In this document: one piece after another, positions 1,640 to 16,862 of the stretch
How positions within the stretch are numbered: position 1 is the stretch's first letter
Layout: the number at the start of each line of letters is the position of its first letter
Position numbers and translations under genes: made by a program
Notes under the pieces: model-generated
Database searches by the model: none
Seen by the model: the letters and a program-made list of their open reading frames with translations, nothing else
Told to the model about the DNA's origin: nothing
Assembly: GCA_016204125.1 (NCBI GenBank)
Contig: JACQLI010000023.1
Location: 1 to 40,722, forward strand
DNA: 40,722 nucleotides
Reading direction: 5' to 3'
Source of the DNA: Candidatus Omnitrophota bacterium
GTDB lineage: Bacteria > Omnitrophota > Omnitrophia > Omnitrophales > JACQLI01

Positions 1640-1888
1640 TTATTCTTCCTCCGCTGCGATTGCTTCAAGTTTGGCAGCAAGATCAGGGTGGGTCGATTTT
1701 AATATCGAAGCGGCTTCTCTGATCGTAGCGGCATGGCCCTCACCATGTTGGTGACTTCCTTCTACTGCTTCACCGCCATGTTCTTTCACCTCGGAACCGC
1801 CGTGCTCTCCTGCAAGAAGAACTGCAGGACTCCACAAGGTTGTACCTAACATTAATGCCAAACCAATCAACATGCTCTTCCGATTCAT
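1640..1888 (-). CDS. small secreted His/Gly/Glu-rich protein
   Basis: Signal peptide MNRKSMLIGLALMLGTTLWSPAVLLA. The mature part carries EHGG repeats and HQHGEGH. Its start overlaps the upstream stop by 4 nt. Confidence 0.55.
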   Translation of the reverse strand: MNRKSMLIGLALMLGTTLWSPAVLLAGEHGGSEVKEHGGEAVEGSHQHGEGHAATIREAASILKSTHPDLAAKLEAIAAEEE

Positions 1889-2871
1889 TTTTCTCCTCCT
1901 GTTGTTTTTAGGTTTTTAAATTGAAACGACGTTTTTACCCCATTCCATTCTTTTCCATCTACTTCAACGTACGGATAGAAAAAAATGTTGACGGGTGGTC
2001 CTGATTGCTTGGGGACAAGATTGATATCCCGTCCCACACTGATGAGAAACTTATTCGTGTCGTAATTTCCGAAATACACCTCCTTTCTTTCCGGATGTTT
2101 CCAAGCTTCGGAAGCATCCACTGGTTGCCAACCTTTTCCTTCTTCATAAAATTCCGCCCAACAGTGATATCCCGGAATCTCTCCCTCAGCTCCATCCGGA
2201 ACTGTGAGTCCGATTTTAAAACGTGCCGGAATCTCCGCCGCATGAGCCATAGAAATAAAAAGCGAATGAAAATCGGTGCAATTTCCTTTTCCAAGAAGAC
2301 AGGCTCTCGCCGTGTCACCGCGCCCCCATCCCGGAATTGTCTTATCATATTTCATCCAATTGATCACATTTTCATAAATGCCTCTTGCTTGCTCAAGTAA
2401 ATTGCGCTTTCCGTGGATCGCCTGTTGCGTTCTTTTCCTCACTTCGTCATTGACCACCATGAGATGATTCGGCTTCAGATACCGATTTACACCAGTTTCG
2501 TGGTTTGAACTGGCAAAATTTTTCTGAAGGGTTTGAGCATAATAAGTCACTTGGAAATTGAGACCTTGCGGAACACGATCTGAAACTTCAAAATAGGCCA
2601 TTTCATTTCCATAGACGGGATCCTTGGTGATTCGATATGGCAAGCCTGTTATGATCTCCCGTTTTTTTACAATTTGTCCTTCCCGAGAAGAAGCAAGCGG
2701 AATCCATACACTCAGTTTTTTTGCATCCTGAGGGATCGCGCCAATGTAAGTTTCATAACTCACCTTAAACTCCCGCTGCGATGGAAAAGGGTCGACTCCT
2801 TTATGCGACTCAAACAAATAAATAGATCCTAATAGGATGACTGCTCCAGAAAATAGAAATAATTTATTCAT
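1885..2871 (-). CDS. transglutaminase-like (Cys-His-Asp) domain protein, N-terminal signal/anchor
   Basis: GNCTDFHSLF (Cys), GYHCWAEFY (His) and WQPVDASE (Asp) appear in the order typical of the transglutaminase core. I moved the start to the ATG at 2871 (MNKLFLFSGAVILLGSIYLF), 4 nt after the upstream stop. The ORF-track start at 2949 would overlap the upstream gene by 74 nt. Confidence 0.8.
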   Translation of the reverse strand: MNKLFLFSGAVILLGSIYLFESHKGVDPFPSQREFKVSYETYIGAIPQDAKKLSVWIPLASSREGQIVKKREIITGLPYRITKDPVYGNEMAYFEVSDRVPQGLNFQVTYYAQTLQKNFASSNHETGVNRYLKPNHLMVVNDEVRKRTQQAIHGKRNLLEQARGIYENVINWMKYDKTIPGWGRGDTARACLLGKGNCTDFHSLFISMAHAAEIPARFKIGLTVPDGAEGEIPGYHCWAEFYEEGKGWQPVDASEAWKHPERKEVYFGNYDTNKFLISVGRDINLVPKQSGPPVNIFFYPYVEVDGKEWNGVKTSFQFKNLKTTGGEK

Positions 2872-2875
2872 GTTG

Positions 2876-3319
2876 TCACAATACAACCAACTGATAGCCT
2901 TGATCCGCCCATTTTGCAATACTCGGATGGCCTCGGTATTCAGCGACAAGGGAAGCTTTTCTTTCTTTAAGTTTGTCTTTCACCAGAAAAGCAGAAGCAC
3001 AGTAATCGCAGATAACTTCTGTGATGCCGGCTTTTCTGAGTTCTTCATACACCGGTTTCAGTTTATCCTGCGACTCAGGATCGAGCCATTCGCTCACCCA
3101 TTCGGTTCCGGCCCCGTCAAAGACAAGAACAACTTCATGCCCATGTTCTTTCAATTCTTTCGAATAAAGCAACGCGTGCACCGCTCGCGCCATGCCTTCG
3201 TGGCTTTCCTTCCCCGCCTGAAAAATAATCAGATACTTTCCACTTTCAGCGAAAGCATTTGGAAAATAACTGGTTGTCATGAGAGCCGCCAAAAGCACTG
3301 CCATTGTGAAACGCTTCAT
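2876..3319 (-). CDS. DsrE/DsrF-like family protein with signal peptide
   Basis: Signal peptide MKRFTMAVLLAALMTTSYFPNAFA. It has a KYLIIFQAGKESHEG...HEVVLVFDGAGTEWV beta-alpha pattern like the DsrE fold and a C-terminal CDYC. Confidence 0.5.
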   Translation of the reverse strand: MKRFTMAVLLAALMTTSYFPNAFAESGKYLIIFQAGKESHEGMARAVHALLYSKELKEHGHEVVLVFDGAGTEWVSEWLDPESQDKLKPVYEELRKAGITEVICDYCASAFLVKDKLKERKASLVAEYRGHPSIAKWADQGYQLVVL

Positions 3320-3322
3320 TTT

Positions 3323-4102
3323 TCACCTCCTCTTGTATGGAATATTAACGAAAGGTGTTTTAATCATCCCCAATAGCGATTGCCACTCTTTTTCCTGCAA
3401 GTAAGGAAGACCGTACACAAGCGTTCGAGTATCTTTCCTCTTGTGGAAAGACTTAACGATTCTGTCCCAAAAAGAAAAAATGCTTGAGTAATTAGAATCT
3501 GTTTCGCTTCGAATTTGCGAATGATGTACTCGGTGCATATTGGGCGTAACGATTATCGCGCGAAAAATTCGGTCGATCTTTTCAGGCAGTGCGACATTCG
3601 AATGATGAAAAATGATGATCGGCTGCAAACAGAGTTCATAAATCAAAAGTTGAATAAATTGCATTCCAATCAAAGGAATGACAATGAGACGGAGAAGTGA
3701 AGAGAATACAATTTCTCCGGTATGAAACCTGAGAGCACTCGTCGCATCAAGTTCCAGGTCTGAATGATGCATTCTGTGGAACCGCCAGAGAAATGGAATC
3801 TGGTGATTGGCCACGTGCCAAACATACATCCAAAGATCAAAGAGTACGAAGGCGAACGCGCCTTCTATCCAAGAGCTCAAGCTTAATTGGTGAAGAAGCC
3901 CCCATGACCGGCTTTCTGCAAAATGCATCACTTTTAACGTTACGGTAGAAAAAAGCAAGGAGATGATAAGACCATTTAAAACTCCGATTCCGAGATTAGG
4001 TAACGCGTGGCGGAATCGATCATCCCTGCCTTGGAAAAGAGGGAAAATCCCCTCCATCCAGAACACAAGTCCAAGGCTCGCGACTTCAACCCAAAATTTC
4101 AT
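3323..4102 (-). CDS. fatty acid hydroxylase / sterol desaturase family membrane di-iron enzyme
   Basis: Three His boxes, HVANH, HRMHH and HRVHH, sit in a polytopic hydrophobic protein. Confidence 0.85.
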   Translation of the reverse strand: MKFWVEVASLGLVFWMEGIFPLFQGRDDRFRHALPNLGIGVLNGLIISLLFSTVTLKVMHFAESRSWGLLHQLSLSSWIEGAFAFVLFDLWMYVWHVANHQIPFLWRFHRMHHSDLELDATSALRFHTGEIVFSSLLRLIVIPLIGMQFIQLLIYELCLQPIIIFHHSNVALPEKIDRIFRAIIVTPNMHRVHHSQIRSETDSNYSSIFSFWDRIVKSFHKRKDTRTLVYGLPYLQEKEWQSLLGMIKTPFVNIPYKRR

Positions 4103-4764
4103 CGAATCTCCGGATAGAGCTTTCCTTTCAAGCCTAAAATATTAAAGCCTGAGTAACATAAAGCAACAAGAAATATGTTAATCAGTTTTTGTCGGACGCA
4201 ACCATTTTGAGTAAACCGCCGCGCCGATGTCACAACTGGGTCTTGAATAATAACGGGACTTGTCAGCCAACGCAGCCGCTGATAAAAATCAATGTCTTCA
4301 AACGACACAGTCTCACTAAAACCATATAATTTTTCGAAAAGCTTTCTGGTAACGAAAAATCCCTGGTCTCCGTAAGAAAAGAAATGGAATCTCGTATAGG
4401 TCTCGTAGAAACGCAGAAGCCACTGGCGATTGTCGAATTTCATCCTAAAGCGGCCTGCGCTGGCGCCTTGACTGACGACTTCTTTGATCTGCTCTAAACC
4501 ATTCTTAGGTAAGCGAGTATCCGCATGCAGAAAAAGAAAAACATCGCCAGTTGCTATTCTAGTCCCTTCATTCATCTGGCGCGCCCTTCCTTTAGCCGAG
4601 GAAATGACGTTTGCCCACTTAGAAGCAAGCGAAACCGTTTTGTCGGTTGATCCTCCATCCACGACAATTATCTCGTCAGGTTGGTGATGAGAACAAAGAT
4701 CTTGTAAAGTATCACAAATGGTCGACTCCTCATTGTAGGTGGGAATAATAACAGATATCTTCAT
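4099..4764 (-). CDS. GT-A fold glycosyltransferase, TIGR04283-like (ArsS-associated transferase 2)
   Basis: ISVIIPTYNEE, EIIVVDGGSTDKT, GRARQMN, LFLHADTRLP, YGDQGFF, FEDIDF and TSARRF. I set the start at the ATG at 4764 (MKISVIIP). The longer ORF-track start would overlap arsS by 110 nt. Confidence 0.8.
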   Translation of the reverse strand: MKISVIIPTYNEESTICDTLQDLCSHHQPDEIIVVDGGSTDKTVSLASKWANVISSAKGRARQMNEGTRIATGDVFLFLHADTRLPKNGLEQIKEVVSQGASAGRFRMKFDNRQWLLRFYETYTRFHFFSYGDQGFFVTRKLFEKLYGFSETVSFEDIDFYQRLRWLTSPVIIQDPVVTSARRFTQNGCVRQKLINIFLVALCYSGFNILGLKGKLYPEIR

Positions 4765-4777
4765 GCCTTTTACCTTT

Positions 4778-5743
4778 TCACTTTTTACTTTCCAATGCTC
4801 CCTGGCAACTAGAACCGCATCCGGCCGTACACCCAAAACAATGCTCCCCGGTTGCGATTCTGAAATCCTCAAGCTGGGCGGGATCAAGGTTAAAAATAGT
4901 TAAAAGCCTGCCATTTTTCATCTGCATACCTTGAGCCTGATTGAAATCGCAATCATAAACTCTCCCGTCCCACGATACGCTCAAGGTGTTTTGGCACATA
5001 AGACCGTCCAAAGTGGCGGGATTGAAACTGTTCATCAAAAGTTGGGTATAAGTTTCGTACTGGTTAAAGGCCTTTAGATATTTTGTGTATCGGGTAATTG
5101 GCATATTGGTAATGGTATAAAGACGATTAAAAACAATCCCCCAATCCTCCTTGAGTCTTTCTTTGTAATCTTCTTCAAGCTGATCCTGAGCTGGAGGCAA
5201 ATGGGGACCAACCGGATTGTAAACTAGACTGAGGATAAGATTACTCCCTTCCTTCCCATAGCCAAGCTCATTTAATTTCAAAAGGGCTTTGATGGATTCA
5301 TCAAATACACCCTTGCCTCTTTGTTTGTCCACGTTTTCTTTTAAGTAGCAAGGTAAAGAAGCGACAATTTCAACCTGGTGATCCGCCAAAAATGTGTCCA
5401 AATCCTCCTGGCCTGGCACAAAGAGCACGGTTAAATTGCAACGGTCAATTACATGAATGCCGCGCTTCTTTGCTTCCGAAACCAAATACCTAAAATTGGG
5501 ATTTAGTTCTGGTGCACCGCCTGTGAGATCAAGTGTTTTGAATTGAGCTCGATCCATAAAATAGACAACGGCTTCTGCCGTTTCATGGTTCATATTTTCC
5601 CGTGTTTTGGTCGGCCCCGCTTCAACATGACAATGCACACAAGCGAGATTACAAAGTTTCCCAAGATTAACCTGAAGGATCTCTATCTTTTGTTTCCGAA
5701 GCCGGGCGCTAACTTCCCCAAGCTTCTCCTCGAAACGATTCAT
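4778..5743 (-). CDS. arsS: arsenosugar biosynthesis radical SAM protein ArsS (radical SAM / Cys-rich C-terminal domain, TIGR04167-like)
   Basis: CNLACVHC radical-SAM CxxxCxxC triad near the N-terminus and a Cys-rich C-terminal tail CFGCTAGCGSSCQGAL. It sits beside arsM and the two context-linked transferase families. Confidence 0.85.
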   Translation of the reverse strand: MNRFEEKLGEVSARLRKQKIEILQVNLGKLCNLACVHCHVEAGPTKTRENMNHETAEAVVYFMDRAQFKTLDLTGGAPELNPNFRYLVSEAKKRGIHVIDRCNLTVLFVPGQEDLDTFLADHQVEIVASLPCYLKENVDKQRGKGVFDESIKALLKLNELGYGKEGSNLILSLVYNPVGPHLPPAQDQLEEDYKERLKEDWGIVFNRLYTITNMPITRYTKYLKAFNQYETYTQLLMNSFNPATLDGLMCQNTLSVSWDGRVYDCDFNQAQGMQMKNGRLLTIFNLDPAQLEDFRIATGEHCFGCTAGCGSSCQGALESKK

Positions 5744-5746: not shown

Positions 5747-6901
5747 TTAAGCTCCTATTCTCGATAATAAAATAAAACTTGCTGCTGAAAAAAATGCTGC
5801 TACCGGCAAAGTCAAAAACCATGCGCCCAAAATGGAAGAAATCACATTCCACCGCGCTTTTCCATTCACAAGACCGATTCCGAAAAGGGCTCCGCAAGAA
5901 ACATGGGTCGTTGATACCGGCATTCCCCACTGGGAAGCAAAAATAACCAAAATGGCAGTGACCAAATTGGCCGCCAGTCCCTGGCCATGATTCATGTAAG
6001 TGATCTTGTGAGAGACCGTTTCGGCCACTTTCCGTGCGCCCAGGATTCCGCCGACCGCCATCGCCAAAGCAACAAATCCGACATTCCAAGTTAAACCAAG
6101 CGCACTTGAAGCCACAAGAAGAGCAACGATCTTTGGCGTATCATTTAGTCCTCTGGCAAAACTAACAGCTCCCGCACTCAGGAAATGGAAGAAATCAAGA
6201 ACCGACTGAGCGTTCACGCCAAACATTTTCCCTTCATAAATCTCAATCGCTTTGGCTTTGCAGCTTTTCTCATTTCCAACAAATACCTCGGGCAACGTAA
6301 TTTCTGTGCTGGTAAACATTTGTCCATTTTCCAAACCCAAATCTGCCAGAGGAATAACTTTTTCACCAACGCAGAGACAACTCTTTCGCGTAATACCGAG
6401 TGTTTTTCTTGCCTTATGCATCACAAAATAAACCGCTGTGGTCAAAACAAGCGCCATAAAGGGACTTGCGATAAGAGGCATGAGAAAGTTTTTTCCCAAG
6501 GTAGTGAATCCAAGTTCCCCTCCAATTGCTATAAATCCGGCTCCGACCAAAGCTCCTGTAAGGCCGTGTGTGGTTGAAATCGGAATCCCAAAGCGTGCGG
6601 CTAAAAGGACGGTTAAACCCGCGCCTAAGGCGACTGCTGCGAGAAACGCCGGATTTCCAATCACAGCATCCGGAACAAGCCCTTTACCCGTAAACGTTCT
6701 CACCAGACGGGTGGCAAGAAAAAGTGCCGCAATTGATCCTGAAAGTGTCGTCGCCGTAGCCCAGCTCAAGGCCTTCCGGTAATCTGTCGTTCCACTTCCA
6801 AACAGCGTGGCTACGCCCTTGAAATTGTCATTCGCACCATTTGCATACGCTACCAGCAATACTGCGATTAATACTGTTAACATCCAAACCATTAGCAGCA
6901 A
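5747..6901 (-). CDS. PiT (PHO4) family inorganic anion transporter
   Basis: Two-fold repeat signatures GANDNFKGVATL and GLNDTPKIVALL in a protein with about 10 TM segments and a central hydrophilic loop. It overlaps the arsM stop by 10 nt and ends 3 nt before the arsS start. Confidence 0.85.
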   Translation of the reverse strand: MLLMVWMLTVLIAVLLVAYANGANDNFKGVATLFGSGTTDYRKALSWATATTLSGSIAALFLATRLVRTFTGKGLVPDAVIGNPAFLAAVALGAGLTVLLAARFGIPISTTHGLTGALVGAGFIAIGGELGFTTLGKNFLMPLIASPFMALVLTTAVYFVMHKARKTLGITRKSCLCVGEKVIPLADLGLENGQMFTSTEITLPEVFVGNEKSCKAKAIEIYEGKMFGVNAQSVLDFFHFLSAGAVSFARGLNDTPKIVALLVASSALGLTWNVGFVALAMAVGGILGARKVAETVSHKITYMNHGQGLAANLVTAILVIFASQWGMPVSTTHVSCGALFGIGLVNGKARWNVISSILGAWFLTLPVAAFFSAASFILLSRIGA

Positions 6902-10819: not shown

Positions 10820-12090
10820 GGTCGAGTCCCCCGTTCACAAATTTGGGCAAACCTTTTCGCCGAAGGACGGATCTTTCGCTCCTGCGTTTCGTAATCCACC
10901 TCAATGAGCCCAAAGCGGGGTGAGAACCCTTCCGCCCATTCATAATTATCAAGCAGGGACCAGTAGAGGTAGCCAAAGACCGGGGCTCCTTCTTGGATCG
11001 CCTTCGCAAGTTCACCTAAATGGCTCTCGATAAATTCAAACCGCTCCTCGTCATGATCCGTGCAGACTCCGTTCTCGGTAACCAGGAGCGGAAGCTTATA
11101 TTGGGAGAATTCCTTGATGAGGCGGTAAAGGCCCTGCGGGTAGATTTCCCAGGAAAGAAAATTACGCCTGCCCACTTGCCGGTGGTGTTTCAAGGTACAG
11201 ATGTCGCCGAAGAGAGCGGGGATCCGAAAGCCCTCGTTATGAACAAAATCACGCGTGTAGTAATTCATGCCGATGAAATCAAGCGTGCGTGCCTTGGGGA
11301 GCTGAATCTTAAAAAGGCCGGGATAAAAAATGCGGCCGCGGATCAAGGCCCTGATGAAAAGATGATTGAACATCAGGTTCCGAATCCAAACGGAAATCCG
11401 GTCCTTCCAGGAACGGTCGGAACAGGGAGTAAAGATCAATACGTGTTTCGCAATCCCCACTTGGGCGGGTGAGCGCTTCAGCCGCTGGTTCACCTCTTTG
11501 ACGGCGTCGTAAGCCAGGACATGACCTTTGAGGAGATGGCCTAATGCTTGCAAGGTTTTTTCGTAGGATCTTTCAGCCGGAGGCCATTCCCCCATGAAGT
11601 AACTTTTAAAAACATAGGCGACAGGTTCATTTAAAGTGATCCAGTACCGGACACCTTCGCCGAGCGTTTCGACCGCTTTTCGGACATATCGTGCAAAAAG
11701 ATTCGGTGTCTTGTGTGAAAGCCATCCGCCCTGCTTGGCAAGCCAAAGAGGCAGGGTAAAATGATGCAGCGTGACGATGGGCTCTAACCGATTCAATTTG
11801 AGGGCCTCAATGACCTCGCGGTAATGCGAAAGCGCCTCCTCGTTGAATTGGCCTTCCTCGGGTTCGATCCGGCTCCATTCCAGGGAGAAGCGGTGGGCAT
11901 TATGGTGAAGAGATTTCGCCAAAGAGAAATCTTCCCGGAACCGATTCCAGTGGTCACAAGCCTTCCCGGAACGCTCTTTGACCTTCCCGTTTTGCTCCCA
12001 ATCCCACCAGTCACTGTTTATGTTATTTCCTTCCACTTGATGAGAGGAAGTCGCCGCCCCCCAAAGGAAATCTTTTGGGAATTCAAACAT
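10816..12090 (-). CDS. glycoside hydrolase family 1 (beta-glucosidase-like)
   Basis: FLWGAATSSHQVEGN, acid/base ITLNEP and nucleophile VTENG, with no signal peptide. I set the start at the ATG at 12090, preceded by GAGGTGAGGAAG. The ORF-track start at 12099 is a GTG. Confidence 0.9.
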   Translation of the reverse strand: MFEFPKDFLWGAATSSHQVEGNNINSDWWDWEQNGKVKERSGKACDHWNRFREDFSLAKSLHHNAHRFSLEWSRIEPEEGQFNEEALSHYREVIEALKLNRLEPIVTLHHFTLPLWLAKQGGWLSHKTPNLFARYVRKAVETLGEGVRYWITLNEPVAYVFKSYFMGEWPPAERSYEKTLQALGHLLKGHVLAYDAVKEVNQRLKRSPAQVGIAKHVLIFTPCSDRSWKDRISVWIRNLMFNHLFIRALIRGRIFYPGLFKIQLPKARTLDFIGMNYYTRDFVHNEGFRIPALFGDICTLKHHRQVGRRNFLSWEIYPQGLYRLIKEFSQYKLPLLVTENGVCTDHDEERFEFIESHLGELAKAIQEGAPVFGYLYWSLLDNYEWAEGFSPRFGLIEVDYETQERKIRPSAKRFAQICERGTRP

Positions 12091-12415
12091 CTTCCTCACC
12101 TCTCAACGCTTCAATAACGTCATCCGCACAATTTTCCCGCATAAGAAAATAGGTTTCGATAGCTTGAATCGCCATTTCAGCGTCATCTCCCTCTACCTCA
12201 ACGACCAGTTTTGATTTCCATGTCGCTCCTAAAAGGAGAAGCCCCAGAATGCTTTTCCCGTCCACCGAAAGCCTCCCCTTGCGGATCCGGATGTCAGAGC
12301 TAAATTGCTTAGCGAATAAGATAAAACGGGTTGCCGTGCGGGCATGAAGACCGAGCTGACACGGCATCGTTACTTCTGTCTTCCTGATCCTCGCGTCCTT
12401 GCTTTCGAGTTCCAT
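12083..12415 (-). CDS. ptsH: HPr-family phosphocarrier protein
   Basis: Active-site His context QLGLHARTA and regulatory Ser context DGKSILGLL. I set the start at the ATG at 12415, directly preceded by AGGAGGTGGGAG. Confidence 0.8.
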   Translation of the reverse strand: MELESKDARIRKTEVTMPCQLGLHARTATRFILFAKQFSSDIRIRKGRLSVDGKSILGLLLLGATWKSKLVVEVEGDDAEMAIQAIETYFLMRENCADDVIEALRGEEDV

Positions 12416-12430
12416 CTCCCACCTCCTCAT

Positions 12431-12601
12431 TTAAAAAGGAATCTTGATCTGCTTGCCGCAATGGGGGCAAACAATGACGCGATATTTTCCGGTCGAATCT
12501 TCAACAACCCTTTCCTCAAACACAGCCTTAGGCACCCGGCTTAATCCTGAACAGCCGCTCATGAGAGTCGCGACGACGAAGATAAGAACCATCCTTTTCA
12601 T
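12431..12601 (-). CDS. small lipoprotein with CPHC motif (56 aa, below the ORF-track cutoff)
   Basis: My translation is MKRMVLIFVVATLMSGCSGLSRVPKAVFEERVVEDSTGKYRVIVCPHCGKQIKIPF. It has a lipobox-like LMSGC. It fills the gap between the oxidoreductase stop (12604) and the HPr ORF exactly. Confidence 0.45.
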   Translation of the reverse strand: MKRMVLIFVVATLMSGCSGLSRVPKAVFEERVVEDSTGKYRVIVCPHCGKQIKIPF

Positions 12602-12603: not shown

Positions 12604-14046
12604 TTATGCCAACCGAATCAGCCTCTTCGCTAATTTAGGAAACCAACCGCTAAACAACTTTTCTCTGTAGTATTGATCACAAGAACGTTTCACTGCTTGC
12701 GAAAGTGTCGGATAAACATGGATCGTCTGGGAAATCTGGGTGATCGGAATTCTTGCTTTCATGGCGAGAGCAAATTCGTGGAGGAGTTCTCCCGCATTCG
12801 GACCCAGAAGATGGGCACCCAAGATTTGATTCTTCCTATCGCAAACCAGCTTAATGAGGCCGTGGCCTTCCCCTTCGATCACCGCTCGATCCACATCTTC
12901 AAATTGAAACTTGAATACCTGAATATTCTTTTCTCCGTATTCTTTTTTGGCTTCTGCCTCGGTCATTCCAACGCGGCCTAACTCAGGATCCGTATAAGTG
13001 ACCCACGGCACAACGCGATAATCGGTTTTTCGGTTCATAAAAGGGAAAAGCGCATTCGAGACGACAATCCCAGCTTGATATTCCGCTACATGCGTAAAGG
13101 GATAAAGTCCCGTGACATCACCCGCTGCGAAGATGTGTCTTAAGGAAGTTCGCATCGTAGTGTCCACTTTAATTCCTTTCTTATCGTGCTCAACACCGAT
13201 AAGCTGTAAATTAAGGCCTTCGATATTTGGAGCACGGCCGATGGCAATCATCACTTCATCGACTTCCAAATTCAAATTGCCATGGATCTCGCACTGAGCC
13301 GCTAACAATCTCTTCCCATTCCCATTTCCCTTGACTTCCTTAACTTCCATGCAGGTTACAATATCAATTCCTTCTTTCTTAAGAATCCCCTCTAAGGCAT
13401 CCGCAAGTTCCTTATCCTCACGCGGTAAAATCTGACCCATTTTTTCAATAACCGTAACCTTAGAACCTAACCGTGCGAATACTTGCGCAAACTCCATTCC
13501 AATCGGTCCTGCGCCAAGAATCGCAATCGACTTGGGTAAGTCCTTAAGTTGAAGAGCGGTAATATTGGTAAGGGCACCTGATTCTTTAAGACCAGGTATG
13601 GGTAGGATCACAGGTCTTGATCCCGTTGCTATCAAGAATTTTTTAGCTTGAACTCGTCTTCCCTGTTTTCCGTTCGTCTCGAAGGTATGAGGATCGATGA
13701 ACTTCCCTTCTCCAAAGATCACCTCAACACCCATCTTTCTGAATCTCTCGGGATCGTCATTCTTGCCAATGCGTTCTTGAACTGAACGCATCCGGTTCAT
13801 AACTTTTTTGAAATTTACCTGCGCTCCAGATTTCTCGATCCCGAATTCTTCAGAACGCTTGATGAGGGAAGCGACTTTCGCAGACTGAACGAGGGTTTTT
13901 GTCGGAACGCAGCCCCAGTGAAGGCAGTCTCCCCCGAGAGATTCTTTCTCCACTAGGGCAACCTTTGCTCCAAACTGAGCGGCTCCACTTGCGGTAACAA
14001 GCCCTGCAACACCGCCTCCTATAATCACCAGGTCAAACTGTGTCAT
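12604..14046 (-). CDS. class I FAD-dependent pyridine nucleotide-disulfide oxidoreductase (dihydrolipoyl dehydrogenase / mercuric reductase-like)
   Basis: FAD fold VIIGGGVAGL, redox-active disulfide GGDCLHWGCVPTK, NAD fold ILGAGPIGMEFA and a C-terminal interface motif HVYPTLSQ. Confidence 0.85.
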   Translation of the reverse strand: MTQFDLVIIGGGVAGLVTASGAAQFGAKVALVEKESLGGDCLHWGCVPTKTLVQSAKVASLIKRSEEFGIEKSGAQVNFKKVMNRMRSVQERIGKNDDPERFRKMGVEVIFGEGKFIDPHTFETNGKQGRRVQAKKFLIATGSRPVILPIPGLKESGALTNITALQLKDLPKSIAILGAGPIGMEFAQVFARLGSKVTVIEKMGQILPREDKELADALEGILKKEGIDIVTCMEVKEVKGNGNGKRLLAAQCEIHGNLNLEVDEVMIAIGRAPNIEGLNLQLIGVEHDKKGIKVDTTMRTSLRHIFAAGDVTGLYPFTHVAEYQAGIVVSNALFPFMNRKTDYRVVPWVTYTDPELGRVGMTEAEAKKEYGEKNIQVFKFQFEDVDRAVIEGEGHGLIKLVCDRKNQILGAHLLGPNAGELLHEFALAMKARIPITQISQTIHVYPTLSQAVKRSCDQYYREKLFSGWFPKLAKRLIRLA

Positions 14047-14716
14047 AGGAATTCCCTCCCTTGATTTTTTTGTAAATTGACGGCAGAAAGGAAATGAAAA
14101 TCAAAAGCACGCCGGCCAGAATCAAATTGAGAAAGGCCGCTCGACTGGCTCCTTGAACTCCTTCGAGAAGCGCATCTGCAAAATAGGTGTAGATAAAAGT
14201 CCCGGGTAGCATTCCAATTACTGACGCTAGGAGATAATCGCGATACCTGACGGCTGAGAAACCTGCACCAAAATTGAGACCGTTAAAGGGAACAATTGGA
14301 ATTAGGCGAAGACGGAAAATGGTTTTAAAGCCAGACCTTCCGATTTGCTCATCGAGCTCGGCAAGTTTTCCGCCCTTTAGGAAGCTCTTTACAAAATCAC
14401 GCCCCAAATAACGTGCTGCAAAGAAAGCGAGCGACGCTCCAAGGTTTGAAGCAATCACGTTATAAAGCGTTCCCCATGCCGTACCAAAAACGGCTCCCCC
14501 AGCAAGTGTTAGCAGCGAACCTGGTAAAGCGACAACACATCCAACAGAATAAATCGCAATAAAAATGAACGGTCCCCACCATTGGCCCCGTAGGGATTCA
14601 AGAAAACTGACGATCTGTTCCTTTGTAAAATACTGAGAAAGGGGTGTGTAGCGCACGACGAGACCAACGACAAGAATAACAGCTACTAAAATGATAAATC
14701 TCGTTATTTTGTTCAT
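14033..14716 (-). CDS. TVP38/TMEM64 (DedA superfamily) membrane protein
   Basis: LPGSLLTLAGGAVFG and RLIPIVPFNGLNFGAG motifs in a multi-TM protein. Its stop overlaps the oxidoreductase start by 14 nt. Confidence 0.8.
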   Translation of the reverse strand: MNKITRFIILVAVILVVGLVVRYTPLSQYFTKEQIVSFLESLRGQWWGPFIFIAIYSVGCVVALPGSLLTLAGGAVFGTAWGTLYNVIASNLGASLAFFAARYLGRDFVKSFLKGGKLAELDEQIGRSGFKTIFRLRLIPIVPFNGLNFGAGFSAVRYRDYLLASVIGMLPGTFIYTYFADALLEGVQGASRAAFLNLILAGVLLIFISFLPSIYKKIKGGNSYDTV

Positions 14717-14719
14717 TAC

Positions 14720-15013
14720 TCAGCGCTCCTTAACTTCGAGACCATTTGCCTTGAGAATTTCAAGTGCATGCGCACGACAATCCAAAAAATGGCGCAGCTG
14801 ATCCGGCTTTTCAGCTTCAACCATGTGAATCAAATCCTTTTCGCTTACATCAAGCAATGCGATGGTAGCAAGATATTCCCTATCCTTTTCTGATTTCATC
14901 TGCGTCATGAGTTCCTGCGTGGCAATTCCCTCCACAAATCGCAAACGAACCAATGCCGCAAGCTTCTTAAAAGGAATTCCGCAATAACAGGCCGAAACTT
15001 TGATTTTCTCCAC
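14720..15013 (-). CDS. hypothetical 97-aa protein
   Basis: ORF tightly packed in the array, 3 nt from the downstream gene. The N-terminal SACYCGIPFKKL is reminiscent of the first Cys pair of BFD-like domains, but no second Cys pair is present. Confidence 0.45.
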   Translation of the reverse strand: MEKIKVSACYCGIPFKKLAALVRLRFVEGIATQELMTQMKSEKDREYLATIALLDVSEKDLIHMVEAEKPDQLRHFLDCRAHALEILKANGLEVKER

Positions 15014-15029
15014 TGGAATGCTCCTTACA

Positions 15030-15272
15030 TCAAGTTCTTGAGGCGCTTCCTAAATTCTCTTTCATCAAGCGCGAGAACGCCTCAAGCAAACGTTCTGGAA
15101 TTTCTCCACAGCTGACATCAAATTGAGCATCTGTCTTTTTTCCGAGCTCGGTTATGAAATCGCGGCATGGTTTGCACTTCTTGACGTGAGACTGAAACTG
15201 TCTCTGGGCCTCACTAGAAGGTTTTGTCTCAGCAAATGTATAAATCAAATCTGCGGCTTCGTTACAGGTCAT
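15030..15272 (-). CDS. small soluble ZAS-like (HxxxCxxC) putative anti-sigma / redox-sensor protein
   Basis: HVKKCKPC motif and an upstream Cys (MTCNE) with no TM segment. It is collinear with the anti-sigma factor at 16961..17254, including EIPERL versus EIPPEL. Its start forms an ATGA overlap with the DUF547 gene stop. Confidence 0.55.
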   Translation of the reverse strand: MTCNEAADLIYTFAETKPSSEAQRQFQSHVKKCKPCRDFITELGKKTDAQFDVSCGEIPERLLEAFSRLMKENLGSASRT

Positions 15273-16372
15273 GTCTTGTTCTCCTTTTCATTGAGGCTCC
15301 AGTCATATTCGAGCCATTCGATTTTGGTTTTCTCAGAGATTTTTTCTTTAGCCTCTTTCGGCCCGTGGGTCTTCACAAAACTGAGAATCCCGTCCGCCCT
15401 TTCAAAATCCTTCCGGAACCATTTGAAGATGGGAGAAAGATAAAGTGTATCGGTCGCCTCATCGTAACGGGATTTCTTTGGATCTGACAGGAAATTCCGG
15501 ACCTGATCATTGAGTTGGGCATCGAGCTTACTTCCTTGGTAAGGTTCGCTTCGAATGACCGGACAACCCAAGGAGGCGCAAACAAGCGCAAAGTGGATCC
15601 TTGGCTCCTGAAATTCTTTTCGAAGGATTTGGTGTTCAATATGATTAAGGCTCAACGACTCGTCGAAAACTTTGAGGACTTTGCGGGCCCAAACATCCGG
15701 AATCTGCTGGATGCTATTTTCGGGATAGGCCAGCGCTTTCCATCCGAATCTTTTCTGCAAAGGATAATGATCGATCACTAACTTAACTGCGGCTGCATTG
15801 TAGGTGTTGATCCAGAAGGCAATCTTTTCATCTCGGCTCATTTCCTCATAGTTTTCTTTGGAAAGACTTTCGAGCGATTTCATATATTCATTCAAACCCT
15901 GTCTCTCGCGCTTTAATTTCAAATAGTCTACCCTGTCATTAACGGCATAACCTCGAAGGACTTTCGCATAGGCAGAATAATCAAAAGTAAACTCTGCGCT
16001 CGCAAATGCACTTTCGAAAAACGTCGAAGTACCTAGAAATAAAAAGAGAAAAAGAGGCATGCGATGAAGAAACATCGGACAATGTCCACCGCCCAAGAAC
16101 TGCCAGATCCTTGTATTCAAAACGAAATGACGGATCGCCGGCTTTCCTTGCTCCTCTTCTCTAAAAATGAGGCAGACCAGAAAACGCATCGAGATCTTCA
16201 ACGTTTCCCACAGGGCATAGAAAATGCCGGACAAAATTGCCAGCATTCCACCGAGGACAAGCAGAGGACTCAACCACCAACCAAAGAGGATATTTATCAA
16301 AGGGGACACGGCCAACATAAATCCCACCGTCATGCCTCCGATGCCCATCAATGCAAGTTCGCCGGGTTTCAT
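15269..16372 (-). CDS. DUF547 domain membrane protein
   Basis: WINTYNAAAVKLVI and IHFALVCASLGCP hallmarks of DUF547, with N-terminal hydrophobic helices. Its start forms an ATGA overlap with the upstream stop. Confidence 0.75.
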   Translation of the reverse strand: MKPGELALMGIGGMTVGFMLAVSPLINILFGWWLSPLLVLGGMLAILSGIFYALWETLKISMRFLVCLIFREEEQGKPAIRHFVLNTRIWQFLGGGHCPMFLHRMPLFLFLFLGTSTFFESAFASAEFTFDYSAYAKVLRGYAVNDRVDYLKLKRERQGLNEYMKSLESLSKENYEEMSRDEKIAFWINTYNAAAVKLVIDHYPLQKRFGWKALAYPENSIQQIPDVWARKVLKVFDESLSLNHIEHQILRKEFQEPRIHFALVCASLGCPVIRSEPYQGSKLDAQLNDQVRNFLSDPKKSRYDEATDTLYLSPIFKWFRKDFERADGILSFVKTHGPKEAKEKISEKTKIEWLEYDWSLNEKENKT

Positions 16373-16746
16373 GGTTCTATCCGCACGGTTTTAATACCTT
16401 CGAGCTCTTTGGCACGCGTTCTATGCCATTCCTCCAGGATTTTGAAATCGGCCAATAAAGCTTCTTCTTCAGAAATTAGATCATCGTACTCTTTAATACT
16501 CTCTTTGAGCTGAGGCGATGCAGAGGGTCTTGATCGCTTGGTAAAATTTTCCCTTTCCCTCTTATAGCCAGCAATATCCTCTCTTTGCCACTCGGCCAGC
16601 TCACGGTAGGACTCGGCCTGTTTAAGATGCTGCGCGGCTGTCTCAAGAACTTGGGGCCAACCTTGGTTTGGAAAGGCAAAACTGAGTAGTACCAGAAGAA
16701 TCACGAAGACAACCCCATCCGTTTTCATCTGATTCACCCTCTTCAT
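16369..16746 (-). CDS. secreted/anchored helical protein of unknown function
   Basis: Hydrophobic VVFVILLVLLSFAF followed by a charged helical region. I chose the start MKRV at 16746 because its ATG overlaps the TGA of the small upstream ORF. An alternative ATG lies at 16779. Confidence 0.5.
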   Translation of the reverse strand: MKRVNQMKTDGVVFVILLVLLSFAFPNQGWPQVLETAAQHLKQAESYRELAEWQREDIAGYKRERENFTKRSRPSASPQLKESIKEYDDLISEEEALLADFKILEEWHRTRAKELEGIKTVRIEP

Positions 16747-16862
16747 GGTTTCTTGTCGGAATTTGTCACCGGTCCACATCCGCAGGTGCCTCCGTGTTTA
16801 ACTCGCCAAATGAGCCATGCGGCTACGGCCCCGACAATCAACAAACCAAGTATCAGTTTCAT
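16743..16862 (-). CDS. 39-aa Cys-rich small membrane peptide (resembles FeoB-associated Cys-rich membrane proteins)
   Basis: My translation is MKLILGLLIVGAVAAWLIWRVKHGGTCGCGPVTNSDKKP, one TM helix then GGTCGCG. It lies 26 nt downstream of the repeated ECF-type promoter motif. Its stop overlaps the next start (ATGA). Confidence 0.4.
   Translation of the reverse strand: MKLILGLLIVGAVAAWLIWRVKHGGTCGCGPVTNSDKKP

What the first reader, a model, noticed from the sequence alone, without database searches (positions are those of the whole stretch)
1640..16862. Twenty-one co-directional genes with no gap above 16 nt: a possible 15-kb super-operon
**Seen in the sequence:** from the 39-aa peptide gene (16862) down to the His-rich peptide gene (1640), consecutive ORFs either overlap or sit at most 16 nt apart.
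- Many overlaps are ATGA-type or 4-17 nt.
- The largest gaps are 15014-15029, 12416-12430 and 4765-4777.
- The array is bounded upstream by the repeated ECF-type motif (16888-16919).
- It is bounded downstream by the only strong hairpin in the region (1588-1623).

**Inference:** a thiol/redox module and the arsenic-glycoconjugate module form one ECF-controlled transcription unit. Together they would be a stress-inducible metalloid-transformation system that is larger than the described arsS/arsM pair.
Basis: partly seen in the sequence, partly recalled or inferred. Interest (0 to 1): 0.7.

Follow-up and report, generated by a model that had tools for sequence, protein, structure and literature searches.

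The report
ECF-controlled arsenosugar-type gene array, Omnitrophota
In an uncultured Omnitrophota bacterium, 21 to 24 tightly packed same-strand genes combine organo-arsenic enzymes (ArsM/ArsS), sugar-transfer enzymes and thiol-redox proteins behind a stress-sigma-factor promoter; relatives show these parts belong together, which gives concrete candidates for the unknown later steps of arsenosugar synthesis.

Summary
There are 21 minus-strand ORFs from 16862 to 1640, and no junction gap exceeds 16 nt.

- **Promoter:** the 32-nt motif at 16888-16919 recurs at 17935-17966, upstream of an ECF sigma gene (17251-17877) and its RsrA-type zinc anti-sigma gene (16961-17254).
- **Conservation of the motif:** GAATC(C)TTTT, 20-21 nt start-to-start, then GCATCTTAA. 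It sits upstream of the sigma operon and just after the anti-sigma gene in all five closest ECF relatives sampled. In each, an ArsM-containing cluster follows, with ArsS or a fused radical-SAM/ArsM.
- **Redox and arsenic halves:** VTT/DedA, the disulfide oxidoreductase and DUF547 lie co-directionally beside ArsS/ArsM across several phyla. They do so about as often as the glycosyltransferases that NCBI already names "arsenosugar biosynthesis".

Corrections to the finding:
- The whole 40.7-kb contig is on one strand, so co-directionality alone proves nothing.
- The 3' hairpin is terminator-like. However, the next gene (1155-1556) is syntenic with, and elsewhere fused to, the His-rich gene family, so the functional unit runs past it.
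- More distant sigma orthologues lack ars genes.

A single 15-kb transcript and the chemical product remain untested. I rate it a new variant of a known kind.

The parts
17935..17966 (-). ECF-type promoter motif copy 1, upstream of the sigma gene (presumed autoregulatory promoter)
   Evidence: exact repeat; 0 matches expected by chance. The equivalent position is conserved in L158, L164, L165 and L167, and upstream of the operon's first gene in L161.
17251..17877 (-). ECF sigma factor, 208 aa, with sigma-70 regions 2 and 4 only
   Evidence: Pfam Sigma70_r2 and Sigma70_r4_2. NCBIfam TIGR02937 scores 105.8, above its 42.9 cut-off. There are 1303 homologues, and the closest are from Omnitrophica.
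16961..17254 (-). Soluble zinc-binding anti-sigma factor (ZAS), 97 aa, with an RsrA-like Cys-26-His-3-Cys-2-Cys arrangement. Its start overlaps the sigma gene by 4 nt.
   Evidence: zf-HC2, E = 5.7e-12. The best NCBIfam match is RsrA, below its cut-off. The motif C..HLADCPGC is conserved in all five relatives.
16888..16919 (-). ECF-type promoter motif copy 2, ending 25 nt before the first array gene (presumed array promoter)
   Evidence: It is conserved just after the anti-sigma gene in L158, L161, L163, L164 and L165.
16743..16862 (-). g01: 39-aa membrane micro-protein with a C-terminal CGCG motif; first gene behind the promoter
   Evidence: Homologues sit at the same position in L158 and L165. 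There is a weak resemblance to FeoB-associated Cys-rich peptides, E = 0.17.
16369..16746 (-). g02: ORF of about 125 aa with no family (alternative starts at 16779 and 16728)
   Evidence: It was not found in relatives, so its gene status is the weakest of the 21.
15269..16372 (-). g03: DUF547 protein with an N-terminal membrane extension and an invariant CX4C (HFALVCASxGCP)
   Evidence: Pfam 1.2e-28; alignment A1. The AF2 model has pLDDT 91 and no relative in the PDB. It is co-located with ArsS/ArsM in many loci.
15030..15272 (-). g04: second RsrA-like ZAS protein, 80 aa, with the same Cys/His spacing
   Evidence: zf-HC2. Pairwise with the anti-sigma factor, E = 3e-7. An orthologue is present in L158.
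14720..15013 (-). g05: conserved 97-aa protein with no family and a CYC motif
   Evidence: Orthologues in L078 (60%) and L158.
14033..14716 (-). g06: VTT/DedA-family membrane protein
   Evidence: Pfam 4.7e-29. It lies beside ArsS in 13 of 36 full-flank genome loci, always on the same strand.
12604..14046 (-). g07: class-I pyridine-nucleotide disulfide oxidoreductase (redox motif GGDCLHWGCVP)
   Evidence: Pfam and NCBIfam. It lies beside ArsS in 9 of 36 full-flank loci.
12431..12601 (-). g08: 56-aa lipoprotein-like peptide with a CPHC motif
   Evidence: 82% identical orthologue in L003/L085.
12083..12415 (-). g09: HPr-family phosphocarrier-like protein
   Evidence: Pfam 9.4e-21; TIGR01003 scores 63.1, above 47.9. 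An HPr gene also follows the ECF promoter in L165.
10816..12090 (-). g10: GH1 beta-glycosidase
   Evidence: Pfam 9.9e-89. It is syntenic in L003, L078, L079 and L164.
9398..10819 (-). g11: GT-C-type membrane glycosyltransferase (MptA_B/GT87-like)
   Evidence: The identical protein P0241 carries PF26314, and relatives carry PF09594. It is 26% identical (E = 7e-24) to the L164 GT-C.
8760..9479 (-). g12: GT2 glycosyltransferase, TIGR04283-like. It overlaps g11 by 73-82 nt, and the two are fused in relatives.
   Evidence: TIGR04283 scores 171.3, below the 182 cut-off. GT-C+GT2 fusion proteins include P0242, P0243 and P0255.
8090..8770 (-). g13: TIGR04282 / DUF2064 nucleotide-diphospho-sugar-transferase-fold protein
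   Evidence: TIGR04282 scores 187.1, above 134. PDB 3CGX matches at 4.8e-39.
6892..8106 (-). g14: ArsM-type As(III) SAM methyltransferase
   Evidence: All the best NCBIfam hits are ArsM models, but each is below its cut-off. It aligns with CmArsM structures, and the Cys of YGCG, SNCV and GC are conserved.
5747..6901 (-). g15: PHO4/Pit-family phosphate (arsenate?) transporter
   Evidence: Pfam 1.1e-61. The order ArsM-(ArsS)-PHO4 recurs in relatives.
4778..5743 (-). g16: ArsS radical-SAM enzyme (CX3CX2C plus the DUF3641 domain)
   Evidence: TIGR04167 scores 451.3, above 300. Pfam DUF3641, E = 2.6e-54.
4099..4764 (-). g17: TIGR04283-family GT2 glycosyltransferase
   Evidence: Scores 224.4, above 182.
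3323..4102 (-). g18: membrane fatty-acid-hydroxylase-superfamily di-iron enzyme
   Evidence: Pfam 1e-26. It lies beside ArsS in gammaproteobacterial loci and in L163.
2876..3319 (-). g19: secreted DsrE-like protein
   Evidence: Pfam 3e-9. Orthologues in L078 and L161.
1885..2871 (-). g20: exported transglutaminase-core protein
   Evidence: Pfam 1.6e-21. It is fused to a FA_hydroxylase domain in L163 and syntenic in L089.
1640..1888 (-). g21: secreted His-rich ('EHGG') 82-aa protein
   Evidence: The EHGG N-terminus is found fused to the d1 domain in L163 and L164.
1577..1636 (-). Strong hairpin followed directly by UUUU; terminator-like, probably leaky or an attenuator
   Evidence: -34.7 kcal/mol, z = -4.45. 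It is the only strong intergenic fold on the contig. The simple terminator scan did not call it.
1155..1556 (-). d1: secreted 133-aa protein; a probable 22nd member of the functional unit
   Evidence: 75% identical orthologue directly after the His-rich gene in L089, after which the strand switches. It is 56% identical to the C-terminal part of the L163 fusion protein.
524..1150 (-). d2: SAM methyltransferase, 4 nt after d1; a possible member
   Evidence: Pfam and NCBIfam. Methyltransferases with the same Pfam families lie near this ECF in L164 and L167.
69..491 (-). d3: 140-aa ORF with no family, 32 nt after d2; membership unknown, and the contig ends here

Best explanation
The block is an enlarged, consolidated version of a conserved ArsM/ArsS-centred organo-arsenical (arsenosugar-type) biosynthesis cluster. 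It sits behind an ECF sigma-factor promoter in a Candidatus Omnitrophica genome.

**Shown here**
- The 21 ORFs are packed with no gap above 16 nt.
- ArsS, a TIGR04283 glycosyltransferase and TIGR04282 pass their curated cut-offs. ArsM keeps the three As(III)-binding cysteines.
- The 'redox' genes (VTT/DedA, disulfide oxidoreductase, DUF547 with an invariant CX4C) are co-directional neighbours of ArsS/ArsM in several phyla.
- An ECF sigma gene and an RsrA-type zinc anti-sigma gene lie directly upstream.
- One bipartite motif precedes both the sigma operon and the array, here and in five relatives.

**Inferred**
1. Thiol-reactive stress (oxidants, electrophiles, possibly As(III) itself) inactivates the anti-sigma factor.
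2. The freed sigma factor transcribes its own operon, and from the second promoter a long polycistron through the 21 genes. Stop/start overlaps would give translational coupling.
3. The Pit-type transporter imports arsenate or phosphate. ArsM makes methylated As(III), and ArsS adds 5'-deoxyadenosyl.
4. The sugar-handling set then turns the arsenic-riboside into a glycoconjugate or lipid on or across the membrane. That set is TIGR04282, two GT2 enzymes, a GT-C transferase fused to GT2 in relatives, GH1, the DedA-type membrane protein and a fatty-acid-hydroxylase-like enzyme.
5. The oxidoreductase, DUF547 and DsrE-like proteins keep arsenic or thiols reduced.
6. The 3' hairpin damps transcription rather than ending the unit, because the next gene belongs to the same functional set.
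For: **Packing**
-. Tight junctions are also kept in relatives L078 and L089.

**Enzyme identities**
- Family assignments.
- ArsM cysteines aligned to CmArsM.
- TIGR04282 matches PDB 3CGX.
- GT-C identity and GT-C+GT2 fusions.

**Synteny**
- L003/L085, L078 and L079 keep the window's order at 50-82% amino-acid identity.
- The core ArsM, ArsS, (PHO4), VTT, oxidoreductase, DUF547, GT2, TIGR04282 is seen in L092, L109, L116, L119, L120, L139, L144 and L145. Gammaproteobacterial loci L028, L043 and L045 carry most of it.
- In 36 species-level genomes with full 10-kb flanks around ArsS, the counts are VTT 13, oxidoreductase 9, TIGR04282 14, GT2 11 and ArsM 12. All but one oxidoreductase hit are on the ArsS strand.

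**ECF control**
- Sigma and anti-sigma identities.
- Motif repeat with 0 matches expected by chance.
- In the contigs of ECF orthologues at 88, 78, 71, 68 and 69% identity, the sigma/anti-sigma pair is followed at once by ars-type clusters. The motif occupies both expected positions.
- 18 of 19 aligned instances have a fixed 20-21 nt spacing and lie roughly 20-70 nt before start codons.
- L129, whose ECF is only 51% identical, has a motif copy directly upstream of ArsM.

**3' end**
- Synteny of d1 in L089.
- EHGG+d1 fusion proteins.

**Known biology**
- arsM and arsS are co-transcribed in Synechocystis, and ArsS catalyses the first committed step of arsenosugar synthesis (10.1101/2022.09.23.509062, citing Xue et al. 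2017b and 2019).
- ArsS adenosylates arsenic (PMC12159101, citing Cheng et al. 2021).
Against: - There are no transcript data, so internal promoters inside coding sequence cannot be excluded.
- The whole contig runs on one strand and is compact. Adjacency and co-direction are therefore weak evidence on their own.
- The close relative L078 has the same gene order but no ECF pair or motif within 2.5 kb upstream.
- ECF orthologues at 58-67% identity have no ArsM/ArsS within 10 kb downstream.
- In L129 and L167 the motif precedes several short units rather than one long one.
- The ArsM-like protein is below every NCBIfam ArsM cut-off, and the second GT2 is just below its cut-off.
- The hairpin with its U4 tail could be a genuine terminator.
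- The roles proposed for the glycosyltransferases, DedA, DUF547 and the oxidoreductase rest on context only.
Confidence: 0.6

Rival explanations
1. Genome compaction rather than a super-operon. The 21 genes are several independently regulated operons that happen to abut, because this small genome has almost no intergenic DNA and a strong strand bias. Their promoters lie inside upstream coding sequences.
For: - The entire 40.7-kb contig is minus-strand. It includes unrelated housekeeping and beta-oxidation genes, and most junctions there are also short.
- Relatives shuffle the modules freely.
- L129 and L167 carry several ECF-type promoters in front of short units.
- L078 keeps the array without the ECF pair.
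Against: - 0 of 20 junctions exceed 16 nt inside the array, against about 10 of 29 outside it.
- 12 junctions are stop/start overlaps.
- There is no further copy of the ECF motif in the window.
- Sigma-70-like matches are at chance level.
- The tight junctions are conserved in L078 and L089.
Confidence: 0.25
2. A general thiol/soft-metal stress regulon that is not specifically an arsenosugar pathway. On this reading the ArsM-like and ArsS-like enzymes act on another substrate (selenium, tellurium, or a thiol or lipid), and the cluster mainly repairs or modifies the envelope under electrophile or metal stress.
For: - The ArsM-like protein scores below all curated ArsM cut-offs.
- The same ECF in other genomes sits among MerR/MerT/CopZ, DsbD/DsbH, AhpC, rhodanese and bufferin-like genes. 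In three of eight sampled cases it has no ars genes.
- NCBIfam names TIGR04167 as a "(seleno)protein" family.
- DedA/VTT and oxidoreductase families are not specific to arsenic (own knowledge).
Against: - ArsS scores 451 bits against a cut-off of 300 for the equivalog model.
- ArsM retains the three As(III)-binding cysteines of CmArsM.
- ArsM and ArsS co-occur in the window and in most related loci.
- ArsS activity on methylated As(III) has been shown experimentally for the family (papers cited).
Confidence: 0.12
3. The hairpin at 1577-1636 is an efficient terminator and the true end of the unit. On this reading genes 1155-1556, 524-1150 and 69-491 form a separate operon.
For: - The stem is strong (-34.7 kcal/mol, z = -4.45) and is followed directly by UUUU.
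- It is the only strong intergenic hairpin on the contig.
- The 83-nt gap is the largest for 15 kb.
Against: - Only about 20 nt separate the U-tract from the d1 start codon, which leaves no room for a promoter outside the hairpin or the g21 coding sequence.
- d1 follows the His-rich gene after a 30-nt spacer in L089, too short to hold a comparable hairpin.
- The d1 domain is fused to an EHGG His-rich N-terminus in L163 and L164.
Confidence: 0.3

Closest known systems
The arsM-arsS pair of Synechocystis sp. PCC 6803 (arsenosugar biosynthesis; Xue et al. 2017b and 2019, Cheng et al. 2021, as cited in 10.1101/2022.09.23.509062 and PMC12159101)
   Same: Both have an ArsM-type As(III) methyltransferase and an ArsS radical-SAM/DUF3641 enzyme on one strand in one presumed transcription unit. 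ArsS passes the equivalog model.
   Different: Here the two genes are separated by a Pit-type transporter. They are embedded in 21-24 genes and placed behind an ECF promoter. The host is a non-phototrophic candidate phylum. The ArsM is a divergent subtype whose closest model is the arsinothricin-type ArsM, and it scores below that cut-off. No product is known.
NCBIfam/TIGRFAMs context set 'arsenosugar biosynthesis' (TIGR04167 ArsS, TIGR04282, TIGR04283, NF038099)
   Same: The window carries TIGR04167, TIGR04282 and TIGR04283 members above cut-off, next to each other. The association was reproduced here in 30-32 of 76 ArsS loci.
   Different: The named set does not include VTT/DedA, the disulfide oxidoreductase, DUF547, the Pit transporter, FA-hydroxylase, GT-C or GH1. 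The first three are about as frequently co-located with ArsS as the named glycosyltransferases. No regulator has been assigned to the set (own knowledge; no paper found).
SigR-RsrA type ECF sigma with a soluble zinc anti-sigma (ZAS) thiol-stress switch, as in Streptomyces and other actinobacteria (own knowledge; NCBIfam TIGR03988)
   Same: The sigma factor has only regions 2 and 4. A co-transcribed anti-sigma factor of about 95 aa has no hydrophobic segment. It carries HxxxCxxC plus an upstream Cys with the same 26-residue spacing as RsrA. A promoter motif is duplicated before the sigma's own operon. Thiol-redox genes are among the targets.
   Different: The anti-sigma factor is below the RsrA model cut-off (38 against 62.5 bits). 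The promoter consensus GAATC-N15/16-GCATC differs from the SigR consensus as I recall it. The phylum is different. A second ZAS paralogue (g04) lies inside the target array. Targets include organo-arsenic genes.
Lipid-carrier glycosylation systems that combine a GT2 polyprenyl-phosphate sugar synthase, a GT-C transferase and a DedA-family carrier recycler or flippase, for example the Arn pathway or mycobacterial PPM/MptA (own knowledge)
   Same: The same three protein classes occur together: two GT2 enzymes, an MptA_B/GT87-like GT-C that is fused to GT2 in relatives, and a VTT/DedA protein.
   Different: No carrier lipid, donor sugar or acceptor is known here. The resemblance is a lead for the mechanism and not a demonstrated membership.
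Very long bacterial operons, such as the 20-30 gene fla/che, pdu and cob operons (own knowledge)
   Same: There are more than 20 co-directional genes with overlapping or nearly abutting junctions and one upstream promoter.
   Different: Transcription of this array as one unit is unproven. Length alone is not unprecedented.

Membership tests
ArsS (TIGR04167, arsenosugar radical-SAM enzyme) | Score above the curated equivalog cut-off, with a radical-SAM core followed by the DUF3641 C-terminal Cys-rich domain | tested here: met
   451.3 bits against a cut-off of 300. Pfam Radical_SAM plus DUF3641, E = 2.6e-54.
ArsS (TIGR04167, arsenosugar radical-SAM enzyme) | CX3CX2C cluster-binding motif | tested here: met
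   CNLACVHC in the translation.
ArsS (TIGR04167, arsenosugar radical-SAM enzyme) | 5'-deoxyadenosyl transfer to dimethyl-As(III) | not testable with these tools
   Needs an enzyme assay.
ArsM As(III) S-adenosylmethionine methyltransferase | Score above a curated ArsM model cut-off | tested here: not met
   NF040538 scores 390.3 against 500, PRK11873 199.6 against 263 and NF038099 129.7 against 400. All the top hits are nevertheless ArsM models.
ArsM As(III) S-adenosylmethionine methyltransferase | Three conserved As(III)-binding cysteines (CmArsM C72, C174, C224; numbering from memory) | tested here: met
   The alignment to 4KW7/4FR0 matches YGCG, SNCV(L/C)NL and G(C)(I/L)(S/G)GA.
arsM-arsS arsenosugar operon | arsM and arsS adjacent and co-transcribed | tested here: inconclusive
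   They are on the same strand and separated by one gene (PHO4), with a 1-10 nt overlap and a 3-nt gap. Transcription was not testable.
TIGR04282 / TIGR04283 'arsenosugar biosynthesis glycosyltransferases' | Scores above cut-off and location beside ArsS | tested here: met
   g13 scores 187.1 against 134 and g17 224.4 against 182. g12 scores 171.3 against 182, just below. All lie within 5 kb of ArsS.
ECF (group 4) sigma factor | Regions 2 and 4 only, at about 200 aa | tested here: met
   Sigma70_r2 and Sigma70_r4_2, with no region 3 hit. TIGR02937 scores 105.8 against 42.9.
ECF (group 4) sigma factor | Co-transcribed cognate anti-sigma factor | tested here: met
   A zf-HC2 protein overlaps the sigma stop codon by 4 nt. 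The pair is conserved in 8 of 8 sampled orthologues.
ECF (group 4) sigma factor | Autoregulatory promoter sharing a bipartite motif with target promoters | tested here: met
   There are two copies in the window. Of the 19 aligned instances, 18 have 20-21 nt spacing. The function of the motif was not tested.
RsrA-type redox-sensing ZAS anti-sigma | HxxxCxxC plus an N-terminal Cys, with no transmembrane segment | tested here: met
   The spacing is C7, H33, C37, C40, and no hydrophobic stretch is present.
RsrA-type redox-sensing ZAS anti-sigma | Score above the TIGR03988 cut-off | tested here: not met
   38.4 bits against 62.5.
RsrA-type redox-sensing ZAS anti-sigma | Release of sigma on thiol oxidation or modification | not testable with these tools
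   Needs biochemistry.
Single operon (one transcription unit) | One primary 5' end and continuous transcript coverage over all genes | not testable with these tools
   Indirect only: no gap above 16 nt, and no second motif copy.
GT-C glycosyltransferase (MptA_B / GT87) | Pfam family hit on the protein | tested here: inconclusive
   My hmmscan found nothing, even at E <= 5. The precomputed annotation of the identical protein P0241 lists PF26314, and relatives list PF09594. Pairwise E = 7e-24 to the L164 PF26314 protein.

The most novel reading that the evidence does not exclude
The RsrA-type zinc anti-sigma factor, and its paralogue g04 inside the array, would be a direct sensor of arsenite or soft electrophiles. 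It would switch on a complete pathway that has not been described. In that pathway ArsM and ArsS make the arsenic-riboside. A GT2/GT-C/DedA lipid-carrier route, together with TIGR04282, GH1 and a fatty-acid-hydroxylase-like enzyme, then builds an arsenosugar glycoconjugate or arsenolipid at the envelope of a non-phototrophic bacterium. The conserved VTT-oxidoreductase-DUF547 trio would be the missing reductive or handling step of arsenosugar biosynthesis in many phyla.
Probability: 0.2. Interest if true: 0.8.

Novelty: new variant of a known kind. Interest (0 to 1): 0.55.

Why it matters
Only the first two enzymes of arsenosugar and arsenolipid biosynthesis, ArsM and ArsS, are known. The steps after 5'-deoxy-5'-dimethylarsinoyl-adenosine are an open question, as is any regulation of the pathway.

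- **Candidates for the missing steps.** This array and its relatives give a short, testable list of conserved partners: VTT/DedA, a disulfide oxidoreductase, DUF547 with an invariant CX4C, TIGR04282, GT2, GT-C, a Pit transporter and an FA-hydroxylase-like enzyme.
- **A predicted regulator.** They also give an ECF sigma factor with an RsrA-like anti-sigma factor and a well-defined promoter motif.
- **Wider distribution.** They extend arsenosugar-type chemistry to Omnitrophota, a candidate phylum found in groundwater and sediment. That is relevant to arsenic cycling in aquifers.
- **Limits.** The operon length itself is not remarkable.

Tried and rejected
- **Rfam.** A scan of the whole contig at gathering thresholds found nothing, so no riboswitch or leader RNA explains the 5' region.
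- **Sigma-70 promoters.** The scan gave 20 hits against 21.1 expected, which is uninformative.
- **Terminator scan.** It missed the 3' hairpin because of its loop and U-tract rules.
- **Extra copies of the ECF motif in the window.** With 1 mismatch allowed, the only additional hit is on the plus strand and looks like chance.
- **Exact look-up of the DUF547 protein.** It returned only a 1.9-kb contig and was of no use for synteny.
- **Pfam on the unknown ORFs.** Searches at E <= 5 for g02, g05, g21, d1 and d3 gave nothing usable.
- **DUF547 fold.** The model is confident (pLDDT 91), but no PDB chain matches it (best E = 5). The fold therefore gave no functional clue, and the PDB sequence search was also empty.
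- **Literature.** Searches linking ArsS or arsenosugars to gene clusters, glycosyltransferases, arsenolipids, DUF547 or RsrA/arsenite found no relevant paper. The library lacks most subscription papers, so absence is weak evidence.
- **Idea rejected: the ECF is dedicated to arsenic.** Three more distant orthologues lack ars genes.
- **Idea rejected: the fused radical-SAM/ArsM proteins of L164 and L165 are ArsS-ArsM fusions.** Their radical-SAM part is SPASM-like, lacks DUF3641, and shares only 27% identity with ArsS over 157 aa of the core.

Full report
**Origin.** The window is an entire 40,722-bp contig of an NCBI metagenome-assembled genome labelled Candidatus Omnitrophica bacterium. Proteins identical to two window genes are on record with a longest contig of exactly that length. 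The closest ArsS, ECF and DUF547 relatives are also from Omnitrophota.

**The observation.**
- All 21 ORFs are present on the minus strand.
- With the most plausible start codons, the 20 junctions are 12 overlaps and 8 gaps of 2-16 nt.
It overlaps by 73-82 nt, and relatives encode the two proteins as one GT-C+GT2 fusion.
- Inside the array 0 of 20 junctions exceed 16 nt, against about 10 of 29 elsewhere on the contig.
- Every gene of the contig is on the minus strand. These include LepA, an M16 peptidase, a glycerol-kinase-like gene and a beta-oxidation set. Co-direction alone is therefore not evidence of co-transcription.

**Gene content.** In 5'-to-3' order the genes are:
- g01: a 39-aa membrane peptide ending in CGCG.
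- g02: an orphan ORF.
- g03: DUF547.
- g04: an 80-aa zf-HC2 protein.
- g05: a conserved 97-aa protein with no family.
- g06: VTT/DedA.
- g07: a class-I pyridine-nucleotide disulfide oxidoreductase.
- g08: a 56-aa lipoprotein-like peptide.
- g09: an HPr-like protein.
- g10: GH1.
- g11: a GT-C (MptA_B/GT87-like) transferase.
- g12: a GT2 just below the TIGR04283 cut-off.
- g13: TIGR04282, which matches PDB 3CGX at 4.8e-39.
- g14: an ArsM-type methyltransferase.
- g15: a PHO4/Pit transporter.
- g16: ArsS (451 bits against a cut-off of 300).
- g17: a TIGR04283 GT2 (224 against 182).
- g18: an FA-hydroxylase-superfamily enzyme.
- g19: a secreted DsrE-like protein.
- g20: an exported transglutaminase-core protein.
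- g21: a secreted His-rich protein.

The ArsM-like protein is below all curated ArsM cut-offs. It nevertheless aligns with the CmArsM crystal structures and keeps the cysteines of YGCG, SNCV and GC.

- Directly upstream, on the same strand, lie an ECF sigma factor (17251-17877) and a 97-aa zf-HC2 anti-sigma factor (16961-17254). The anti-sigma gene overlaps the sigma gene by 4 nt.
- The anti-sigma factor has no hydrophobic segment. Its Cys-26-His-3-Cys-2-Cys arrangement matches RsrA as I recall it, and RsrA is its best NCBIfam hit, below cut-off.
- g04 has the same spacing and is a distant paralogue, with pairwise E = 3e-7.

**The promoter motif.**
- The 32-nt sequence at 16888-16919 recurs at 17935-17966, upstream of the sigma gene. 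Shuffles give 0 expected matches.
- I looked up the contigs of eight ECF orthologues. For those at 88, 78, 71, 68 and 69% identity (L158-160, L161, L163, L164, L165), the sigma/anti-sigma pair is followed at once by gene sets overlapping the window's array. They are arranged differently each time, for example:
  - L161: rhodanese, DsrE, DUF547, ArsM, PHO4, ArsS, oxidoreductase, VTT.
  - L163: AhpC, ArsM, ArsS, FA-hydroxylase, FA-hydroxylase-transglutaminase, EHGG-d1, oxidoreductase, DUF2064, VTT, GT2.
  - L164: GT-C, GT2, GT2-DUF2064, radical-SAM-ArsM, VTT, oxidoreductase, DUF547, GH1.
- In each, the motif lies both before the sigma operon and just after the anti-sigma gene.
- Of 19 aligned instances, 18 give GAATC(C)TTTT, 20-21 nt start-to-start, GCATCTTAA. 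They lie on the coding strand, roughly 20-70 nt before a start codon.
- A contig with a 51%-identical ECF (L129) has a copy directly upstream of ArsM.
- This is the classic signature of an autoregulated ECF sigma factor and its target promoters. Activity of the motif was not tested.
- The small peptide g01 is also conserved as the first gene behind the promoter in L158 and L165.

**Limits of the ECF link.**
- Orthologues at 67, 61 and 58% identity (L166, L168, L167) have no ArsM/ArsS within 10 kb downstream.
- L167 instead has four motif copies in front of short units. Transglutaminase-core, AhpC, thioredoxin-like, methyltransferase and DUF547 genes lie nearby.
- Around the ECF in several relatives lie MerR/MerT/CopZ, DsbD/DsbH and bufferin-like genes.
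- The sigma factor is therefore best seen as a thiol/soft-metal stress regulator of Omnitrophota. The ars cluster is a frequent target and not a universal one.
- The close relative L078 keeps the array but has a bufferin-like operon and a thioredoxin-like gene upstream instead of the ECF pair.

**Do the redox and arsenic halves belong together?** I tested this with two scans.
- *Genome scan anchored on ArsS, one genome per species (76 loci).* VTT was found beside ArsS in 25 loci, the oxidoreductase in 14, GT2 in 30, TIGR04282 in 32 and ArsM in 20.
- *Loci with full 10-kb flanks only (36).* The counts are VTT 13, oxidoreductase 9, TIGR04282 14, GT2 11 and ArsM 12. All but one oxidoreductase hit are on the ArsS strand.
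- *Lineages.* They include Gammaproteobacteria, Nitrospinota, Desulfuromonadaceae, Magnetococcales, Bacillota and cyanobacteria.
- *Metagenome scan anchored on ArsM.* Eight contigs carry, co-directionally, ArsM, ArsS, VTT, oxidoreductase, DUF547, GT2 and TIGR04282, five of them also with PHO4.
- *Omnitrophota relatives.* L003/L085, L078 and L079 keep the window's order at 50-82% identity, and L078 and L089 keep the tight junctions.

VTT and the oxidoreductase are associated with ArsS about as strongly as the glycosyltransferases that NCBI already names for arsenosugar biosynthesis.

**DUF547.**
- It has an invariant HFALVCASxGCP segment, which is a CX4C motif.
- Some homologues are fused to a thioredoxin-like domain.
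- Plants fuse DUF547 to class IV glutaredoxins (PMC13621322).
- A confident AF2 model (pLDDT 91, pTM 0.90) has no structural relative in the PDB.

**The 3' end.**
- The hairpin folds at -34.7 kcal/mol (z = -4.45) over 1577-1636 and is followed directly by UUUU.
- It is the only strong intergenic fold on the contig, so it is terminator-like.
- The next start codon (1556) is only about 20 nt beyond the U-tract.
- That gene's orthologue follows the His-rich gene after a 30-nt spacer in L089, after which the strand changes.
- In L163 and L164 one protein combines an EHGG His-rich N-terminus with this domain (56% identity, E = 2e-47).
- I conclude that the hairpin attenuates or stabilises the transcript rather than marking the functional end. 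The unit probably has at least 22 genes. The methyltransferase 4 nt further on is a possible 23rd.

**Mechanism (inferred).**
1. Thiol-reactive stress releases the sigma factor from the ZAS protein.
2. The sigma factor transcribes its own operon and the array. No terminator-like site was called between them, so read-through from the sigma operon is likely as well.
3. The Pit transporter supplies arsenate or phosphate. ArsM and ArsS make the adenosylated dimethyl-arsenic intermediate known from Synechocystis (papers).
4. The glycosyl-handling set converts it to a glycoconjugate or lipid. The combination of GT2, GT-C and DedA suggests a lipid-carrier route. That is a lead from general knowledge and not a tested membership.
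5. The oxidoreductase, DUF547 and DsrE-like proteins handle reduction or thiol chemistry.

**Verdict.** It is untested for the single transcript and needs correction at the 3' boundary. The finding is a new variant of a known kind: an ArsS/ArsM arsenosugar-type cluster, here enlarged, consolidated and under ECF control. Its value lies in the list of conserved partner genes and the predicted regulator, not in the operon length.

Noticed in passing
L164:14370-16859 and L165:13765-16257: In two related ECF-linked clusters, ArsS and ArsM are replaced by a single protein of about 830 aa that fuses a SPASM/mycofactocin-like radical-SAM domain (no DUF3641) to an ArsM domain. It shares only 27% identity with ArsS over 157 aa of the radical-SAM core. 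It may be a different C-As bond-forming enzyme.
   Followed up: partly
L078:92-2118 and L078:14133-14426; also L166:5169-7156: Bufferin-like genes lie next to, and in L078 inside, the related arrays: a Cys-rich DUF2282/BufA-type secreted peptide with a fused DUF692 (MbnB-like)/DUF2063 enzyme. This hints at a link between metal-chelating peptides and this stress regulon.
   Followed up: no
window 9398-9479: The 73-82 nt overlap between the GT-C gene and the GT2 gene corresponds to a single fused GT-C+GT2 protein (about 700-720 aa) in several relatives (P0242, P0243, P0255, P0262, P0280, P0306). The window's version is a split form, or possibly frameshifted.
   Followed up: partly
window 15269-16015 (DUF547 domain): The confident AlphaFold model (pLDDT 91, pTM 0.90) has no structural match in the PDB (best Foldseek E = 5). 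The family has an invariant CX4C within HFALVCASxGCP.
   Followed up: yes
window 13910-13959: The strongest 50-nt fold on the minus strand (-27.4 kcal/mol) lies inside the oxidoreductase coding sequence, near the region that encodes the redox-active GGDCLHWGC motif.
   Followed up: no
window 33067-34326: A second GH1 glycosidase paralogue lies 21 kb upstream of the array's GH1, among unrelated genes.
   Followed up: no
window 32244-32317 and 32365-32438: A 74-nt direct repeat, 70% identical with 121-nt spacing, lies inside the overlapping ORFs 32175-32663 and 32461-33051. A related 26-nt piece is at 28840-28865, in the 254-nt intergenic gap.
   Followed up: no
window 20785-20872 (inside ORF 20647-21396): A CT-rich degenerate tandem repeat lies in a 249-aa ORF with no significant Pfam match, located between the acyl-CoA ligase and enoyl-CoA hydratase genes.
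   Followed up: no
L167:8043, 11045, 11168, 14420; L129:962, 2317, 4395, 7910: In two more distant relatives the same ECF-type motif occurs four times on the coding strand. Where gene starts were checked, copies lie just before them (all four in L167; the ECF and ArsM genes in L129). The regulon is dispersed there, whereas in the window it is consolidated behind one promoter.
   Followed up: partly
L163:9383-10621: A single protein fuses FA_hydroxylase and transglutaminase-core domains. This links the window's separate genes g18 (3323-4102) and g20 (1885-2871) functionally.
   Followed up: no
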